DNA of 58,669 nucleotides, taken from Acidimicrobiia bacterium. Its GTDB lineage: Bacteria > Actinomycetota > Acidimicrobiia > Spongiisociales > UBA5794. A program made the translations under genes and the position numbers. Position 1 is the stretch's first letter, and the number at the start of each line of letters is the position of its first letter. This document shows, piece after piece, positions 8,745-48,442 of the stretch. The stretch is taken from contig JASJEG010000001.1 in NCBI GenBank assembly GCA_030064765.1, positions 1-58,669 on the forward strand. Direction: 5' to 3'. Below the pieces are notes generated by a model, which did no database searches, was not told where the DNA came from, and saw only the letters and a program-made list of their open reading frames with translations.

Positions 8745-8824
8745 ATGTCGATCCGCATATGTTACGAGCGATTAGCCTGTGGTCATATTCGAGCACGACG
8801 TTTCGGGATCTGAGGAGGTCGAGC

Positions 8825-9982
8825 GTGGATCTGAAGCAAGCCGCCGCCGAGCGATTCGCAGCAGTCGAATCCGAACTGCGCGAGATCTCTCATTGGATGT
8901 ACCGCAACCCCGAGATCGCGTTCGAAGAACACAACACATCTGCCCGGCTGGTTGACTTTCTGCGTAGCAACGGGTTCGAGGTCGAGTACCCGGCTTTTGG
9001 ACTCGATACCGCTTTTGCGGCTCGCGCCGGTACAGAAGGACCCGAAGTCGTCATCTGCGCTGAGTACGACGCCCTGCCCGAAGTCGGTCACGCTTGCGGG
9101 CACAACATCATCGCCGCTGCCGCGCTGGGTGCTGGGGTGGCGCTGGTTGATGCTGCCGCCGCGCTCGGGTTCCGGGTCCGGGTTCAAGGAACGCCGGCGG
9201 AGGAGTCCTATGGCGGCAAGGTGGATCTGATCAACAACGGAGCCTTCGCGGGCGCGGCGCTCTCGATGATGATTCACCCATCGACATCCGATGTAGTCGA
9301 TCCGGCATTCCTCGGAGTTGCCCATGTCGATGTCGAGTTCTTTGGCAAGGAATCGCACGCTGCCTTTGCCCCCCAACTGGGCGTCAACGCGCTCGATGCT
9401 GCGGTGCAGACCTACGTCAACATCTCCACGCTCCGCCAGGCGATGTACCCCACCGACAAGGTGCATGGGGTCATCACGTACGGTGGCGGCGCCCCCAACG
9501 TAATCCCGGCCTATACCGCGATGTCCTGGTACATCCGGGCGGCAACCACGGAGCGGCTCAACGAACTCGAAGCCAAGGTGCTGGCCTGCTTCGAAGCTGC
9601 CGCCAGCGCCACAGGATGCACCTACGAGGTGAAGCCGCTCGGGCACACCTACACCGATCTGATCTCGGATCCGCTGATGGTTGAGCTATACCAGGCCAAC
9701 TCGAGCGGCCTGGGGAGGCCGATGGGTCGCGGCGCCGATCGGGATCCGGCAGCCGCCGGATCCACCGATATGGGCAACGTCAGCCATGAGGTGCCGTCGA
9801 TTCACCCCATGCTCGACATCAAGTGCTTCCCCGCAGTGAATCATCAGAAGGAGTTCGCCGCAGCCACCATTCTGCCCCCCGGCGACCAGGCGATTCGCGA
9901 TGGAGCCATCGCCATGGCAGGGACGGTCATCGACATTGCTGCCGGCAACCGCTGGGACGAACTCCGCAAGATCGAGAATTAG
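8825..9982 (+). CDS. M20/M20D family amidohydrolase
   Basis: AEYDALPEVGHACGHNIIAAAALGAG motif. I prefer the GTG at 8825, which is preceded by GAGGAGG (8812-8818), over the track start at 8759. Confidence 0.85.
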   Translation: MDLKQAAAERFAAVESELREISHWMYRNPEIAFEEHNTSARLVDFLRSNGFEVEYPAFGLDTAFAARAGTEGPEVVICAEYDALPEVGHACGHNIIAAAALGAGVALVDAAAALGFRVRVQGTPAEESYGGKVDLINNGAFAGAALSMMIHPSTSDVVDPAFLGVAHVDVEFFGKESHAAFAPQLGVNALDAAVQTYVNISTLRQAMYPTDKVHGVITYGGGAPNVIPAYTAMSWYIRAATTERLNELEAKVLACFEAAASATGCTYEVKPLGHTYTDLISDPLMVELYQANSSGLGRPMGRGADRDPAAAGSTDMGNVSHEVPSIHPMLDIKCFPAVNHQKEFAAATILPPGDQAIRDGAIAMAGTVIDIAAGNRWDELRKIEN

Positions 9983-9986
9983 ACCA

Positions 9987-10038
9987 CCGTTCTTGCGTAA
10001 CTGACGGCGTATATCGGCCGTGGCTTACGCAAGAACGG
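9987..10038 (+). repeat. Nested-hairpin intergenic repeat, copy 1 (REP-like)
   Basis: CCGTTCTTGCGTAA-CTG-ACGGC-GTATATCG-GCCGT-GGC-TTACGCAAGAACGG. The outer stem is 14 bp and the inner stem 5 bp. It lies between the M20 stop and the ybaK start. Confidence 0.85.
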
Positions 10039-10052
10039 GTGAGAGGTGGGTA

Positions 10053-10526
10053 GTGGCCGCCAAGACCAACGCTATGCGGCTCCTGGAGCAGGCCGGGATC
10101 GAGTTCGAGGTTTGCGAGTACACCCTCTCTATGGACGACTTCAGCGCGGAGCGGGTCGCCGAACTCGTCGGTATGGAGCCCGATCAGGTCTTCAAGACGC
10201 TGGTCGCGATCGGCGATCGCAACGGACCTTGTTTTGCTGTGATCCCGGCAAACACCGACCTCAGCCTCAAGGCGCTGGCAGCGGCGCATGGCGATCGCAA
10301 GGCGCATCTGGCTTCGTTGAAGGAGGTTCTTCCCTTGACCGGCTACGAGAGGGGATCGGTGACCGTGCTGGGAGCAAAGAGGGAGCTACCGGTGTACCTG
10401 GATGAGATCGCCGAGATCTTCGACGAAATCGCCGTTTCCGGAGGGACCAAGGGCATTCAACTCGTGTTGAAGCCACAGGACTACATCGCCTTCACCAACG
10501 CAACTATCGCCGCCATCGGGATCTAG
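10053..10526 (+). CDS. ybaK: Cys-tRNA(Pro)/Cys-tRNA(Cys) deacylase
   Basis: AAKTNAMRLLEQAGIEFEVCEY...GYERGSVTVLG... YbaK pattern. The GTG at 10053 is preceded by GAGAGGTGG. The track start at 10020 lies inside repeat copy 1. Confidence 0.85.
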   Translation: MAAKTNAMRLLEQAGIEFEVCEYTLSMDDFSAERVAELVGMEPDQVFKTLVAIGDRNGPCFAVIPANTDLSLKALAAAHGDRKAHLASLKEVLPLTGYERGSVTVLGAKRELPVYLDEIAEIFDEIAVSGGTKGIQLVLKPQDYIAFTNATIAAIGI

Positions 10527-10576
10527 CCGTTCTTGCGGATCTCAGCGTCCATATGGACGCTCATGTACGCAAGAAC
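10527..10576 (+). repeat. Nested-hairpin intergenic repeat, copy 2 (REP-like)
   Basis: CCGTTCTTGCG-GATCTC-AGCGTCC-ATAT-GGACGCT-CATGTA-CGCAAGAAC. It has the same outer arms as copy 1 and a different but complementary 7-bp inner stem. It starts on the nucleotide after the ybaK stop. Confidence 0.85.
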
Positions 10577-10591
10577 AAAGAGTCGCCCTGG

Positions 10592-10617
10592 TTCGCTCGA
10601 GGCCTGCCTCGAGCGAA
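10592..10617. terminator. Perfect 11-bp hairpin between convergent ybaK and the ABC ATPase gene
   Basis: TTCGCTCGAGG-CCTG-CCTCGAGCGAA. On the minus strand it sits 5 nt after the ATPase stop and is followed by a U-rich stretch (CUCUUUGUUCUU). Confidence 0.5.
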
Positions 10618-10622
10618 ATCCT

Positions 10623-11369
<747 letters not shown>

Positions 11370-20050: not shown

Positions 20051-20054
<4 letters not shown>

Positions 20055-21349
20055 TCCCCCGCTACTCACTACCCGAGATGAGCCGGATCTGGAGCGAGGC
20101 CCGCAAGCTCGAGGTGTGGAAAGAGGTCGAGACACTCGTGGTCGAGGCCTGGGCGCAAGCCGGGGTCGCTCCGGCCGACGCGGCCACAGCTTTGCGCGCT
20201 GCACCCGAGGTCGACCCGGTGGAGTGGAAGACGCGGGAAGAGACCACCAATCATGACGTGGCAGCATTCGTTGATGTCCTTGCGGCATCGCTCGCAACCG
20301 GCGGAGAGTGGGTGCACTACGGACTCACCTCCTCGGACATGCTCGACACCGCCCAAGGTCGGATTCTCAAGGACGCAGCGGAGTTGCTGCAGCAGCGCCT
20401 AGATGACTTGCTGCGTGTTGTCATCCGCCGGGCTGTCGAGCATCGCGACACGGTGATGATCGGGCGCACCCACGGCATCTGGGCGGAGCCAACGACGTTT
20501 GGACTCAAACTGGCGACTTGGGCTTTCGAGATCGACCGTGATCGGACCCGGCTGCGGGCTGCGACATCGTCGATAGCCGTGGGCAAGATCTCTGGTGCCG
20601 TCGGCACCTACGCCCACACGCCGCCGAATATCGAAGCCTATGTGTGCGACCGGCTCGGTCTGGCTGTAGAACCAGCGTCATCTCAGATAACTCACCGCGA
20701 TCGTCACGCCGAGTTTCTGGCCACGCTGGCACTGGTTGGGTCATCCCTCGAGCGCTTTGCTACGGAGATCCGTCATCTGCAGCGATCCGAGGTGGGTGAA
20801 GCCCGCGAGTCATTCGGCAAGGGCCAGAAGGGCTCGTCGGCGATGCCGCACAAGCGGAACCCGATCGCATCCGAGAACGTCACGGGCCTGGCTCGTCTAC
20901 TGCGGTCTTATGCGTCGGCCGGGTTTGAGAACGTCGCACTCTGGCACGAGCGGGACATATCGCACTCGTCGGCAGAGCGGGTGGCGCTGCCGGACGCATG
21001 TTTGATTCTGGACTTTGCGCTGGTTCGGATGACCACGCTGATCGACAACCTCGTCGTCGACCAAGCTCGCATGTTGTCCAACCTCGAGGCGACCCGCGGA
21101 CTCGTATTCTCCCAGGCAGTGCTGCTGGCGATCATCGAGGAACAAGGCCTATCTCGTGACGAGGCATATCGAATCGTGCAACGCAATGCGCTGCGCGCTT
21201 GGGACGAAGGCCTTCCGTTGCGCGACCTCCTCGCCGAAGACATCGACGTCGCACTGCACCCTGACGTGCTCGACCGGTGCTTCAGCCCAGAGCATTTCCT
21301 CCGCCACAGCGGCGTCATCTTCGACCGGCTCGAGCAGATCGAGATCTAG
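20051..21349 (+). CDS. purB: Adenylosuccinate lyase
   Basis: RYSLPEM...TSSD...GSSAMPHKRNP signature. ATGA overlap with the purD stop. Confidence 0.95.
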
Positions 21350-21371
21350 CCACGGCAACGACCGTTCCCTA

Positions 21372-21424
21372 CCCTTCTTGCGTAAATCACGGCGTATTTC
21401 GGCCGCCAGTTACGCAAGAACGGG
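21372..21424 (+). repeat. Nested-hairpin intergenic repeat, copy 3 (REP-like)
   Basis: CCCTTCTTGCGTAA-ATC-ACGGC-GTATTTCG-GCCGC-CAG-TTACGCAAGAACGGG. By hand alignment 44 of 52 positions match copy 1. It lies between the convergent purB and ABC permease genes. Confidence 0.85.
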
Positions 21425-21448
21425 CGGGGATACGTCGCCCCGACCCGG

Positions 21449-28997: not shown

Positions 28998-29414
28998 CTA
29001 ATTGGTGTTGACCACGTGGTGGGCGGTCTGGGTCAATCGCGCGTCGAGGTAGCTCCGGAGTGGTTCGGCCACGGCCACGTCGGCCAGTGCTCCCCGCATA
29101 CAGCGCAGCCACTCCTCAGCTTCACTGGAACCTATGGCGAAAGGAATGTGGCGCATCCTGAGGCGAGGGTGTCCCTTGCGTTCCATGTAGAGCTGCGGTC
29201 CGCCCATCCATCCGCTGAGAAACTCGAACAGATTGCGCCGCGAGTTGCTGTCGTCGGCAGGGTGCATGGCGCGGAGCGCAGGCGAGTCGGCTGCGATGCG
29301 GTCGTAGAAGCGGTCGACGAGAACTCGCAGCACGGTCTCCCCACCGAGTTCCTCATATGGGGACGGTGCATCCCCCCACGGATTCGCCGTTTCTGGGGCC
29401 GAATCGGGCAGCAT
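28998..29414 (-). CDS. glbO: Group II truncated hemoglobin
   Basis: YEELGGETVLRVLVDRFYDRI...FLSGWMGGPQLYMERKGHPRLRMRHIPFAIG trHbO signature. Confidence 0.85.
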   Translation of the reverse strand: MLPDSAPETANPWGDAPSPYEELGGETVLRVLVDRFYDRIAADSPALRAMHPADDSNSRRNLFEFLSGWMGGPQLYMERKGHPRLRMRHIPFAIGSSEAEEWLRCMRGALADVAVAEPLRSYLDARLTQTAHHVVNTN

Positions 29415-33751: not shown

Positions 33752-34705
33752 ATGCTCGACCTAAGTGACGTAACGGCGGCACGCGCTCGAATCACGCCGT
33801 ACACAAGGAGAACACCGCTCGAGCGGAGCACCACGTTGAGTCGCATGCTCGGCACCAACGTGTACCTGAAGTACGAGCTGTTCCAGAAAACGGGGTCGTT
33901 CAAGCCCCGCGGTGCTTTCAACACGATGTTGTCACTCACTGATGAGGAACGGGCCGCCGGGGTCGTAGGCGTGAGCGGCGGCAACTTCGCTCAAGGGATG
34001 GCATACGCCGGCCAGACCCTTGGCGTGGACACGCTGGTTCTCATGCCCGAAACCACTCCGACCAACTATGTGAGTGCAACCAGAGGCTATGGCGCCACGG
34101 TCGAGTTCGAACCGAGCATCGACACGCTGTTTGCTGCCGCGGAGGAACGAGCCAAGGCCGGGCGCACGCTGCTGCACCCCTTCGACCATCCCGCGATGAT
34201 GGCCGGCAACGGCACGGTCGGACTCGAGATCGTGGAGGACGTTCCCGACGTGACCGACGTCTTCGTAAGCGTCGGCGGTGGTGGGCTGCTCTCCGGGGTG
34301 CTCACCGCGGTCAAGGGAATGGCACCGCAGACCCGGGTCTGGGCGGTCGAGGCGGAAGGCGCGGATGTGTTGGCCCGCTCGGTAGAGGCCGGTGAGCAGG
34401 TGCGGATGACGCCAACCTCGCGTGCCAAGACTCTCGGCTCCCCCTACGCCGCCCAGACGGCCATCGACCTCGCCGGGCAATTGGCTGCGCCCCCTATCGT
34501 TGTATCAGACGAGGCTGCGTTCCGGGCGATGGTTACGATCATGGAGCGAGCCAAGGTTGCTCCCGAGCTGGCGGCATCCTGCACCCTCGCCGCGGCCGAG
34601 ACGGTGGCCGAGCGCTTTGGGCCGGATGATCGCGTCGTGCTGCTGCTGTGCGGCGGCAACGTCTCGGCTGCCGATATCGCCGAGATGAAGGCGGCGTTCG
34701 GCTAG
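33752..34705 (+). CDS. PLP-dependent threonine/serine dehydratase (short form, no regulatory domain)
   Basis: YLKYELFQKTGSFKPRGAFN (PLP-lysine motif) and SGGNFAQG. Confidence 0.85.
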   Translation: MLDLSDVTAARARITPYTRRTPLERSTTLSRMLGTNVYLKYELFQKTGSFKPRGAFNTMLSLTDEERAAGVVGVSGGNFAQGMAYAGQTLGVDTLVLMPETTPTNYVSATRGYGATVEFEPSIDTLFAAAEERAKAGRTLLHPFDHPAMMAGNGTVGLEIVEDVPDVTDVFVSVGGGGLLSGVLTAVKGMAPQTRVWAVEAEGADVLARSVEAGEQVRMTPTSRAKTLGSPYAAQTAIDLAGQLAAPPIVVSDEAAFRAMVTIMERAKVAPELAASCTLAAAETVAERFGPDDRVVLLLCGGNVSAADIAEMKAAFG

Positions 34706-34713
34706 CCCTGTGC

Positions 34714-34759
34714 TTTTGGCGTCCCAGACCGGAACATATTCCGCTCAGCGACGCCAAAA
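34714..34759. terminator. Nested hairpin between convergent genes; possible diverged member of the repeat family
   Basis: Outer stem TTTTGGCGTC/GACGCCAAAA (10 bp), inner stem CGGAA-CATA-TTCCG. Same architecture, and an A/T loop core like the GTTCTTGCG/CGCAAGAAC copies. Confidence 0.5.
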
Positions 34760-34780
34760 CGGTCGCGAGAACGGGCGAAG

Positions 34781-48245: not shown

Positions 48246-48314
48246 GGCGTCATCCTAACCTCGGCACCCGTTTCGGCTCGGTGCAGACCTCTGAGGCCGA
48301 TCCATCCCAATTCT

Positions 48315-48364
48315 CCGTTCTTGCGTAACTGGCGGCACATATCCGCCGTGATGTACGCAAGAAC
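48315..48364 (+). repeat. Nested-hairpin intergenic repeat, copy 4 (REP-like)
   Basis: CCGTTCTTGCGTAA-CT-GGCGG-CACATAT-CCGCC-GTGATG-TACGCAAGAAC. It lies between the DUF4342 stop and the SelW-like start. Confidence 0.85.
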
Positions 48365-48442
48365 AGCAGTGACGCCCACGCGATCACCCTGGAGGAGCTC
48401 CGGATCGAGTCGTTCCTCGCGGCCGACGCCGCGACCGGGGAG

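What the first reader, a model, noticed from the sequence alone, without database searches (positions are those of the whole stretch)
9987..10576. ybaK is bracketed by two copies of a ~50-bp nested-hairpin repeat
Seen: copy 1 (9987-10038) ends 14 nt before the ybaK start. Copy 2 (10527-10576) begins on the first nucleotide after the ybaK stop. Both share the outer arms CCGTTCTTGCG...CGCAAGAAC. Their inner stems differ in sequence (ACGGC/GCCGT versus AGCGTCC/GGACGCT) yet each is self-complementary, around an A/T-rich apical loop (GTATATCG, ATAT). Conserved structure with divergent sequence argues for selection on a DNA or RNA hairpin rather than chance. Two same-orientation copies tightly flanking one small gene could mark a REP/MITE-like element family, a mobilised cassette, or paired RNA processing or termination signals.
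Basis: seen in the sequence. Interest (0 to 1): 0.6.

Follow-up and report, generated by a model that had tools for sequence, protein, structure and literature searches.

The report
REP-like hairpin repeats flanking ybaK
The two hairpins around ybaK are ordinary copies of a large, apparently undescribed family of about 50-65-base DNA palindromes that spread through gene ends in Acidimicrobiia and that always bracket one DNA-binding nuclease gene, so ybaK itself is not special but the repeat-plus-nuclease pairing looks like a new version of the REP/transposase partnership.

Summary
The window holds four strong copies (9987, 10527, 21372, 48315) and one weak relative (34705). Of the 80 titled, 62 are Acidimicrobiia MAGs; 36 assemblies were typed.

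Anatomy: conserved arms CCG-TTCTTGCGTA...TACGCAAGAA-CGG, a variable covarying inner stem, an A/T-rich centre, and pyrimidine-rich 5' / purine-rich 3' flanks. Copies sit at gene 3' ends, 68% within 20 nt of a stop, and some supply the stop codon. There is no U-tract, no target duplication, no sense-strand G.U bias and no Rfam match.

At the ybaK locus the upstream copy is old: present down to 72% YbaK identity, inner stem rewritten, empty site in one relative. The downstream copy is young (>=90% only). Gene order is unchanged, so ybaK is not a cassette.

Inner stems are genome-specific, and identical mismatches recur in both orientations, so copies derive from master sequences. No RAYT was found. 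A wHTH-DUF559 nuclease gene is bracketed by this family in 6 of 6 loci, four of them chosen by protein alone.

Best reading: a REP-like DNA repeat with a non-RAYT partner.

The parts
9981..10044 (.). Copy 1 of the palindromic repeat (core 9987-10038). It lies between the M20 peptidase stop and the ybaK Shine-Dalgarno/GTG.
   Evidence: covariance model R1 66.3 bits, E 7e-19; DNA fold -20.9 kcal/mol, z -6.7. An orthologous copy is present in L117, L118, L119 (decayed), L120 and L122, and absent from L123.
10521..10584 (.). Copy 2 of the repeat (core 10527-10576). It abuts the ybaK stop codon in a convergent spacer.
   Evidence: R1 55.0 bits; DNA z -5.5. It is present only in close relatives L117 and L118, and absent from L119 and L120, which have the same gene order.
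21366..21429 (.). Copy 3 (core 21372-21423). A solo element between purB and a convergent MacB/FtsX permease gene.
   Evidence: R1 69.3 bits; purB and permease by Pfam. In L070, L105, L128 and L129 the purB 3' end carries element-nuclease-element instead.
48309..48372 (.). Copy 4 (core 48315-48364). It lies between two minus-strand genes, DUF4342 and a SelW-like gene.
   Evidence: R1 61.2 bits; DUF4342 by Pfam.
34705..34768 (.). Weak, diverged relative with the same 46-nt architecture but different arms (TTTTGGCGTC...GACGCCAAAA). It sits in a convergent spacer between a PALP enzyme gene and an ABC ATPase gene.
   Evidence: R1 17.2 bits, E about 0.003; DNA z -3.1. Membership of the family is uncertain.
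10053..10526 (+). ybaK (Cys-tRNA(Pro) deacylase, 157 aa), the bracketed gene. It is a resident housekeeping gene, not cargo.
   Evidence: PF04073, 90 bits; homologs of 155-157 aa; conserved M20-ybaK synteny.
8759..9982 (+). M20-family peptidase/amidohydrolase gene whose stop lies 4 nt before copy 1.
10623..11369 (-). ABC-transporter ATPase gene, convergent with ybaK.
10592..10617 (.). Separate small GC hairpin (GCTCGAGGC-CTG-CCTCGAGC) between copy 2 and the ABC ATPase stop. It is probably the native 3'-end hairpin of the convergent pair and is not part of the repeat.
   Evidence: An orthologous hairpin GTTCGGAGCCTGCTCCGAAC is present in L119, which lacks copy 2.

Best explanation
The two hairpins are copies of a dispersed, REP-like DNA palindrome family of Acidimicrobiia. 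A unit is about 64 nt. It has a pyrimidine-rich tail, CCG, a conserved arm TTCTTGCGTA, a 10-12-bp variable but self-complementary inner stem around an A/T-rich centre, then the mirror image TACGCAAGAA-CGG and a purine-rich tail. Shown: copies multiply within genomes from master sequences, settle in the tiny spacers at gene 3' ends, and persist there for long periods. Their inner stems are rewritten in a genome-specific way. Inferred: the conserved 13-bp foot of the extruded hairpin or cruciform is the recognition site of a trans-acting protein. The best candidate is the wHTH(AbiEi_4)-DUF559 (Vsr/PD-(D/E)XK-type) nuclease, whose gene the family brackets wherever I could look. Nicking or cleavage followed by copy-repair would then both spread the element and homogenise it. 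ybaK is bracketed only because an old insertion sits at the M20-ybaK junction and a younger one at the ybaK 3' end. When transcribed, each copy would form a 21-27-bp RNA duplex that may be trimmed or cut, as proposed for REP and TRIT. I regard that as a side effect, not the reason the family exists.
For: Family and spread: three sites in the window against 0 expected. Structure: covariation in 12 of 14 variable pairs, all shuffles and slid controls beaten; z -4.7 to -7.1; centre A/T 0.59 against 0.22 in the adjacent stem. Duplicative origin: inner-stem similarity 0.725 within genomes against 0.491 between them, permutation p<0.0005; in CAZONX the same imperfect palindrome with identical mismatches occurs in both orientations. 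Gain, loss and turnover: empty site in L123; copy 2 absent from L119 and L120; orthologous copies carry unrelated inner stems and even a compensated arm variant (TCTGGCGTA/TACGCCAGA in L120); a related population carries a copy-2-type element at the copy-1 site, and metagenome word depth rises 25-200x over the elements; in the syntenic loci L070 and L105 both elements carry genome-specific inner stems. DNA rather than sense RNA: G.U 27 against A.C 35 on the sense strand in tandem contexts; flanks and arms are symmetric on both strands. Not a terminator: no U-tract; copy 1 and several other copies lie 2-25 nt before the next start. Partner: the wHTH-DUF559 gene is bracketed in L070 and L105 and in all four loci fetched by protein alone (L126-L129), in at least three different neighbourhoods. 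D, ExD, HxD and KQN residues are invariant; DUF559 scores above Pfam's cutoff; the profile hits PDB 3HRL. No RAYT was found in 915 kb.
Against: No transposition or cleavage has been observed; the mechanism is inferred from arrangement only. At the purB site, where four relatives carry it, the window has only a solo element. The six bracketed loci reduce to about three independent neighbourhoods. Bracketing could also arise if the nuclease gene is itself a selfish gene that inserts between paired elements. Two of three distant nuclease homologs showed no flanking palindromes. The true copy number per genome is unknown. Purifying selection on a cellular function such as RNA processing could also conserve the arms.
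Confidence: 0.7

Rival explanations
1. The elements are primarily functional RNA hairpins at mRNA 3' ends. They would be factor-dependent or bidirectional terminators, or RNase III/exonuclease-barrier sites like mycobacterial TRIT, with arms conserved because a dsRNA-binding factor reads them.
For: 88% of classified sites have at least one gene end beside them, and 68% of gene-end-facing sides are within 20 nt of the stop. Many convergent spacers contain nothing else. A 21-27-bp perfect duplex is a good RNase III substrate. TRIT has the same stop-hugging, palindromic, sequence-conserved character and is proposed to be cut by RNase III (PMC3152330, PMC13714241).
Against: There is no U-tract; the 3' flank is purine-rich. 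There is no excess of G.U over A.C on the sense strand (27 vs 35). Copy 1 and other copies sit 2-25 nt upstream of a start codon inside apparent operons. Copy 2 coexists with a separate conserved hairpin. Orthologous sites gain and lose the element. Identical mismatches are shared by copies within a genome. No RNA data are available. This reading does not explain the bracketed nuclease gene.
Confidence: 0.17
2. ybaK is a mobilised cassette: the two copies are the ends of a composite element or integron-like attC sites that move the gene.
For: Tight bracketing occurs in the window and in L117, L118 and L100. attC sites are also structure-conserved palindromes placed right after cassette stop codons (general knowledge).
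Against: The M20-ybaK order is conserved in all seven relatives, including those lacking one or both elements. The two copies differ in age. There are no direct repeats or target duplication. Copies are scattered singly among housekeeping genes rather than in same-direction arrays. The attC R-box positions are variable here. Adjacency is expected by chance at p 0.2-0.4.
Confidence: 0.02
3. The palindromes are double-stranded operator sites of a global regulator, with two 12-bp half-sites bound by a dimer, and are not hairpins or mobile repeats.
For: The half-sites CGTTCTTGCGTA are highly conserved across many species. A wHTH protein is associated with the family.
Against: Half-site spacing varies from 46 to 49 nt, which would rotate the sites by more than 100 degrees. 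The sequence between them is held self-complementary by covariation, which a duplex operator does not need. Sites lie at gene 3' ends and rarely in divergent promoter spacers (12 of 98). The flanking genes are functionally unrelated.
Confidence: 0.05

Closest known systems
REP / REPIN elements with their RAYT (REP-associated tyrosine transposase) of Proteobacteria
   Same: Short extragenic imperfect palindromes in many copies, mostly at gene 3' ends and within operons. There is no target-site duplication. Subfamilies are genome-specific and keep the hairpin through compensatory change. Copies sometimes occur as doublets. A single protein gene is bracketed by copies of its own repeat.
   Different: The bracketed gene is a wHTH-DUF559 (PD-(D/E)XK, Vsr-like) nuclease, not an HUH Y1 transposase. 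No RAYT homolog was found in 915 kb. There is no free 5' GTAG tetranucleotide; GTAA/GTAG lies inside the stem. The arms are conserved across at least 36 species-level genomes (typed among the first 80 loci) rather than being species-specific. The host is Actinomycetota.
TRIT (Tuberculosis Rho-independent terminator motif) of Mycobacterium (Gardner et al. 2011, PMC3152330; 2026 3'-end atlas, PMC13714241)
   Same: An actinobacterial palindrome of about 50 nt, conserved in both sequence and structure, with on the order of a hundred copies or more and bidirectional. It is positioned extremely close to or overlapping stop codons and lacks a canonical U-tract. A sequence-specific factor was postulated.
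   Different: The sequence is different and the clade is different (TRIT was reported as restricted to Mycobacterium). TRIT is discussed only as an RNA element (terminator, then RNase III substrate). No mobility, concerted evolution or partner gene has been described for it. I could not test whether TRIT has a DUF559-type partner.
MITEs such as Neisseria Correia elements
   Same: Dispersed non-coding repeats with conserved inverted ends. They lie in intergenic positions and form RNA hairpins cut by RNase III (PMC13714241).
   Different: Correia elements are 100-155 bp with terminal inverted repeats and a TA target duplication. The present element is about 64 nt, is one continuous hairpin, and shows no target duplication.
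Integron attC sites
   Same: Recombination sites recognised as folded single strands. Outer boxes are conserved while the centre varies but stays structured. They sit directly after cassette stop codons and are similar within a genome (general knowledge).
   Different: There are no arrays and no integrase nearby in the loci examined. The positions corresponding to the RYYYAAC/GTTRRRY boxes are variable. No extrahelical-base asymmetry is evident, and the flanking genes are syntenic housekeeping genes.

Membership tests
REP/REPIN-RAYT system | Short (about 20-60 nt) imperfect palindromes, extragenic, repeated many times in a genome | tested here: inconclusive
   There are 4-5 copies in 58.7 kb and up to 9 exact-arm copies per genome among a truncated sample. 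Metagenome depth rises 25-200x over the elements.
REP/REPIN-RAYT system | Hairpin maintained by compensatory substitutions among copies | tested here: met
   12 of 14 variable pairs covary; 84.7% of cells are paired against about 39% in slid controls; 0 of 500 shuffles reach the observed value.
REP/REPIN-RAYT system | Conserved 5' GTAG-type tetranucleotide outside the stem, serving as the cleavage site | tested here: not met
   GTAA/GTAG occurs at arm positions 8-11 but inside the paired stem. The bases 5' of the stem are CCG preceded by a pyrimidine run.
REP/REPIN-RAYT system | Cognate RAYT (HUH Y1 transposase, IS200/IS605-like) gene flanked by the repeats | tested here: not met
   tblastn and phmmer with E. 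coli RayT against 915 kb of loci found only a Nitrospirota chance locus (L078) and a junk frame. The bracketed gene is a wHTH-DUF559 nuclease. The whole genome was not searchable.
TRIT-like 3'-end RNA element | Sequence- and structure-conserved palindrome with a narrow distribution at or over stop codons | tested here: met
   80 of 118 gene-end-facing sides are within 20 nt of the stop, and 16 use the element's own TAA/TAG as the stop.
TRIT-like 3'-end RNA element | Homology to the TRIT consensus / occurrence in Mycobacterium | not tested
   No TRIT model was at hand. Rfam release 15 gave no hit at gathering or at E<=10. TRIT is reported as restricted to Mycobacterium (PMC3152330).
TRIT-like 3'-end RNA element | Transcript 3' ends or RNase III cuts within the element | not testable with these tools
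   No RNA run holds this locus.
Canonical intrinsic terminator | GC-rich hairpin followed by a U-tract | tested here: not met
   Positions +1 to +9 read CGG followed by a purine-rich run; T is 1-26% per position.
Integron attC | R''/R' boxes RYYYAAC...GTTRRRY, cassette arrays, nearby IntI | tested here: not met
   The AAC/GTT positions are not conserved (columns 20-22 and 43-45 vary). Copies are single and scattered among syntenic housekeeping genes. An integrase was not searched for genome-wide.
MITE | Terminal inverted repeats plus target-site duplication | tested here: not met
   No direct repeat of 2-5 nt was found at any of seven tested boundaries beyond the self-complementary CG.
wHTH-DUF559 (Vsr-like PD-(D/E)XK) nuclease, the bracketed gene in relatives | Pfam DUF559 and AbiEi_4 domains with conserved acidic/His catalytic residues | tested here: met
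   DUF559 scores 29.7-32.4 bits (cutoff 20.6) and AbiEi_4 29.7 bits (cutoff 25). D239, E250xD252, H257xD259 and K269QN are invariant in six proteins. The profile hits PDB 3HRL at E 0.008. Activity was not tested.

The most novel reading that the evidence does not exclude
Acidimicrobiia carry a REP/RAYT-like partnership built on a different enzyme. A wHTH-DUF559 (Vsr/EDxHD-type) nuclease, whose own gene is bracketed by the repeats, recognises the conserved 13-bp foot of the extruded palindrome. By nicking followed by copy-repair it both disseminates the element to gene ends and rewrites the inner stems of all copies in concert. Mycobacterial TRIT could be a relative of the same kind of system.
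Probability: 0.4. Interest if true: 0.8.

Novelty: new variant of a known kind. Interest (0 to 1): 0.6.

Why it matters
REP elements and their RAYT transposases are the textbook case of a long-lived, vertically inherited repeat-plus-enzyme partnership, and they are known essentially from Proteobacteria. A second such partnership in a different phylum, using a PD-(D/E)XK nuclease instead of an HUH transposase, would show that the lifestyle evolved more than once. It would also give the large, unstudied DUF559/AbiEi fusion family a function, and would suggest an origin for stop-codon-hugging palindromes such as TRIT, whose conservation has been unexplained since 2011. In practical terms, these elements supply stop codons, sit inside operons and break MAG assemblies, so annotators need to recognise them. 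For this particular finding the result is deflationary: ybaK is not a mobile cassette.

Tried and rejected
So there is no whole-genome copy count, no orientation against replication, and no search for the nuclease or a RAYT in the window's own genome.
(2) Rfam at gathering threshold and at E<=10 gave nothing.
(3) RNA evidence: no RNA run holds the locus. Only marine-sediment DNA runs do.
(4) Target-site duplication: none at seven candidate boundaries.
(5) Sense-strand G.U excess: none, so I dropped an RNA-only reading.
(6) Shine-Dalgarno explanation of the purine flank: rejected as the main cause, because the flank is purine-rich whatever lies beyond it. It is slightly stronger before starts.
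(7) I first discounted the nuclease link because L070 and L105 proved syntenic. I revived it only after four protein-ascertained loci also showed bracketing.
(9) RAYT yardstick search: only a chance Nitrospirota locus and a junk frame.
(10) Integron attC, MITE and operator readings were rejected (see the membership tests and rivals).
(11) Literature searches for Acidimicrobiia + REP, REPIN + RAYT + Actinobacteria, and DUF559 + palindromic found nothing relevant.
(12) A promoter inside the element: the TTGCGT...TATATC spacing of about 11 nt is wrong for a sigma-70-type promoter (read from the sequence).

Full report
**Observation.**
- Copy 1 (9987-10038) begins 4 nt after the stop of an M20-family peptidase gene and ends 14 nt before the GTG of ybaK. 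ybaK is a 157-aa PF04073 Cys-tRNA(Pro) deacylase.
- Copy 2 (10527-10576) begins on the base after the ybaK stop.
- The arm pattern occurs at three sites in the window against none expected in 100 shuffles.
- All copies fold far better than shuffled controls, as DNA (z -4.7 to -6.7) and as RNA (z -5.4 to -7.1).

**More copies.** The window has two more strong copies, at 21372-21423 (after purB) and 48315-48364 (between DUF4342 and a SelW-like gene). There is also one weak, diverged relative at 34705-34768. With 4-5 copies among 55 spacers, two falling in neighbouring spacers has a chance probability of 0.2-0.4. The bracketing of ybaK is therefore not significant in itself.

**A family across Acidimicrobiia.**
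- Of the 80 loci whose titles were shown, 62 are labelled Acidimicrobiia or Acidimicrobiaceae and six Actinomycetota. Four are unclassified 'bacterium' and two Kiloniellales. Six come from unrelated taxa; these match on one strand only and pair poorly (11-14 of 23-24 pairs), so they are chance hits.
- At least 36 assemblies, each standing for one species, are represented among the loci I could type. They come from soil, sediment, sponge and marine samples.
- The window itself comes from a marine-sediment metagenome.

**Anatomy.**
- In most genomes the element is a near-perfect hairpin of 21-27 bp.
- Invariant or nearly invariant: TTCTTGCGTA and TACGCAAGAA, flanked by CCG and CGG.
- Positions -9 to -4 are pyrimidine-rich with about 10% G. 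Positions +4 to +9 are purine-rich with about 12% C. The full unit is therefore about 64-67 nt.
- The purine-rich outward flank is present whatever lies beyond it (0.65-0.78 against a background of 0.50), so it belongs to the element or its target.
- The inner 10-12 bp vary freely but stay complementary. On 31 gap-free copies, 84.7% of cells pair against about 39% when partners are slid. Twelve of 14 variable pairs show both-sided changes. No shuffle out of 500 reaches the observed covariation.
- The centre is A/T-rich (0.59) next to a GC clamp (A/T 0.22). This is the composition that favours cruciform extrusion (general knowledge).
- Rfam has no match, even at E<=10.

**Gene context.**
- With a GC3-based gene caller, 42 sites lie between convergent genes, 44 between tandem genes and only 12 between divergent genes.
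- Of 118 element sides that face a gene end, 80 lie within 20 nt of the stop. In 16 of these the stop codon is the element's own TAA/TAG. Database gene calls confirm this for purB and the nuclease gene in L128.
- Many convergent spacers contain nothing but the element.
- There is no U-tract.
- Several tandem sites, including copy 1, leave only 2-25 nt before the next start codon, so the element cannot be a strong terminator.
- Copy 2 is followed by a separate small GC hairpin (10592-10617). This hairpin is conserved in a relative that lacks copy 2.

**DNA or RNA?** In tandem-gene contexts, where only one strand is expected to be transcribed, sense-strand G.U (27) does not exceed A.C (35). An RNA structure under selection should show a clear G.U excess. 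Arms, flanks and centre are symmetric on both strands. No target-site duplication is seen. I therefore read the element as a DNA-level palindrome, a hairpin or cruciform. RNA hairpins would be an inevitable by-product of transcription.

**History at the ybaK locus.** Seven orthologous loci (YbaK identity 97% to 68%) all keep the order CMD-M20-ybaK.

M20-ybaK junction (copy 1 site), all:

| Locus | State of the junction |
|---|---|
| L117 | element identical to the window |
| L118 | element present, completely different inner stem |
| L119 | element decayed |
| L120 | perfect hairpin with a compensated change in the 'conserved' arm (TCTGGCGTA...TACGCCAGA) |
| L122 | element present |
| L121 | replaced by another hairpin repeat |
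| L123 | absent; the spacer is 18 nt |

- The downstream copy (copy 2 site) exists only in L117 and L118. L119 and L120 have the same downstream gene but no element.
- Metagenome contigs show a related population in which the M20-ybaK junction holds a copy-2-type element. They also show many unrelated left flanks joining at position 9987, and word depth rising 25-200x over the two elements.
- So the upstream copy is old and has been rewritten repeatedly, the downstream copy is recent, and ybaK has not moved.

**Copies of master sequences.** Inner-stem similarity is 0.725 within genomes and 0.491 between genomes (permutation p<0.0005). In assembly CAZONX the same imperfect palindrome, with identical mismatches, occurs in both orientations. 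In the syntenic loci L070 and L105, both elements at orthologous positions carry the inner stem typical of their own genome. This is duplicative spread with concerted evolution, not independent evolution of similar hairpins. The covariance model also found tandem doublets about 70 nt apart in five loci.

**Partner gene.**
- Looking at genes that lie between two close copies, I found ybaK again (L100). In L070 and L105 I found a 304-311-aa protein with AbiEi_4 (winged helix) and DUF559/REase_MTES_1575 domains.
- Those two loci are syntenic, so they count as a single case.
- Notes from earlier agents of this scan on other Acidimicrobiia genomes claim that such a nuclease gene is always bracketed by the local repeat. 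I treated that as a lead and tested it.
- Four homologs (48-64% identity) were fetched by protein sequence alone. All four are bracketed on both sides by elements of this exact family, with R1 hits of 22-67 bits.
- The neighbourhoods differ: purB/globin (L128, L129), PDT/4HBT with doublets on each side (L126), and adh_short (L127).
- An upstream element sits about 45-55 nt before the start. The stop lies in or against a downstream element, except in L126, where about 80 nt holding a weaker copy come first.
- The six proteins share invariant D, ExD, HxD and KQN residues. Their profile reaches PDB 3HRL, a DUF559 'endonuclease-like protein'.
- E. coli RayT finds no homolog in 915 kb of Acidimicrobiia loci.
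- One distant nuclease homolog (L125) is flanked by a different pair of palindromes. Two others (L022, L124) show none by a strict scan.
- In the window, purB is followed by a solo element and a MacB-type permease gene. No nuclease homolog is in the window. Whether the genome encodes one elsewhere could not be checked.

**Comparison with known systems.**
- The element works like REP/REPIN sequences in position, structure, lack of target duplication, doublets, genome-specific subfamilies and a bracketed partner gene. It fails two defining features of that family: the external GTAG and the RAYT.
- Its closest described actinobacterial analogue is TRIT of Mycobacterium. TRIT is a stop-codon-hugging, sequence-conserved palindrome with 147 copies in M. 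tuberculosis. It was first called a terminator and is now proposed to be an RNase III substrate (PMC3152330, PMC13714241). No mobility or partner enzyme has been reported for TRIT.
- I found no paper describing this family or a DUF559-repeat link.

**Verdict.** The REP-like reading and the covariation argument are supported. The cassette idea and the RAYT expectation are not. The finding is one more instance of a family that this scan has met in other Acidimicrobiia genomes. Its interest lies in the family and its nuclease partner, not in ybaK.

**Limits.** There is no whole-genome count, no RNA data and no biochemistry. The nuclease's role is inferred from gene arrangement alone.

Noticed in passing
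window 10592-10617: A small GC hairpin (GCTCGAGGC-CTG-CCTCGAGC) lies between copy 2 and the stop of the convergent ABC ATPase gene. An orthologous hairpin is kept in L119, which lacks copy 2. It is probably the native 3'-end structure of this gene pair.
   Followed up: partly
window 34705-34768: A palindrome with the same 46-nt nested architecture but different arms (TTTTGGCGTC...GACGCCAAAA, inner CGGAA-CATA-TTCCG) sits in a convergent spacer. It scores only 17 bits with the family model. It could be a diverged member or a second family.
   Followed up: partly
L121:2344-2500: At the M20-ybaK junction of a 76%-identity relative, the element is replaced by a duplicated 42-nt unit containing GTAG followed by the palindrome TTCGATACGATCGAA. 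This is a different, more classically REP-like (GTAG + hairpin) repeat.
   Followed up: no
L120:2975-3087: The spacer after ybaK in this relative holds about 2.5 tandem copies of a 35-nt direct repeat (CCAACCCAGGGTTCACAGCACGCAAAACCGGGCCTA) instead of the palindrome.
   Followed up: no
L100:6397-6530, L067:294-427, L014:1678-1811, L002:5069-5202, L126:1374-1495 and 2490-2619: Elements occur as tandem doublets with a period of about 70 nt. In L126 doublets flank the nuclease gene on both sides. Gene-less doublets could be empty or footprint forms of the element-gene-element unit.
   Followed up: no
L127:1465-1500, L128:1465-1500, L129:1467-1500: The 45-55-nt spacer between the upstream element and the nuclease start contains a shared TGTCAT(G/A)GT motif 6-21 nt before the start codon. 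In L128 and L129 a TTC-rich hexamer lies 17 nt further upstream. This may be a promoter for a leaderless or short-leader mRNA placed next to the protein's presumed binding site.
   Followed up: no
window 20051-21349 and 29007-29393: purB and a bacterial globin gene are separated only by the element-nuclease-element unit in L070, L128 and L129. In the window they are 7.6 kb apart, with a MacB/FtsX permease cluster between them. This marks a rearrangement at the site where relatives keep the nuclease.
   Followed up: partly
L078:2841-3275: A genuine RAYT/IS200-like Y1 transposase ORF (HLHGILV motif) lies in a Nitrospirota contig that matched the search pattern only by chance. It is unrelated to the Acidimicrobiia family.
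   Followed up: partly
L038, L064 (contigs CAXMOP01): Two well-formed copies of the element sit in a MAG labelled Kiloniellales (Alphaproteobacteria). This is either mis-binned Acidimicrobiia contigs or a case of transfer.
   Followed up: no
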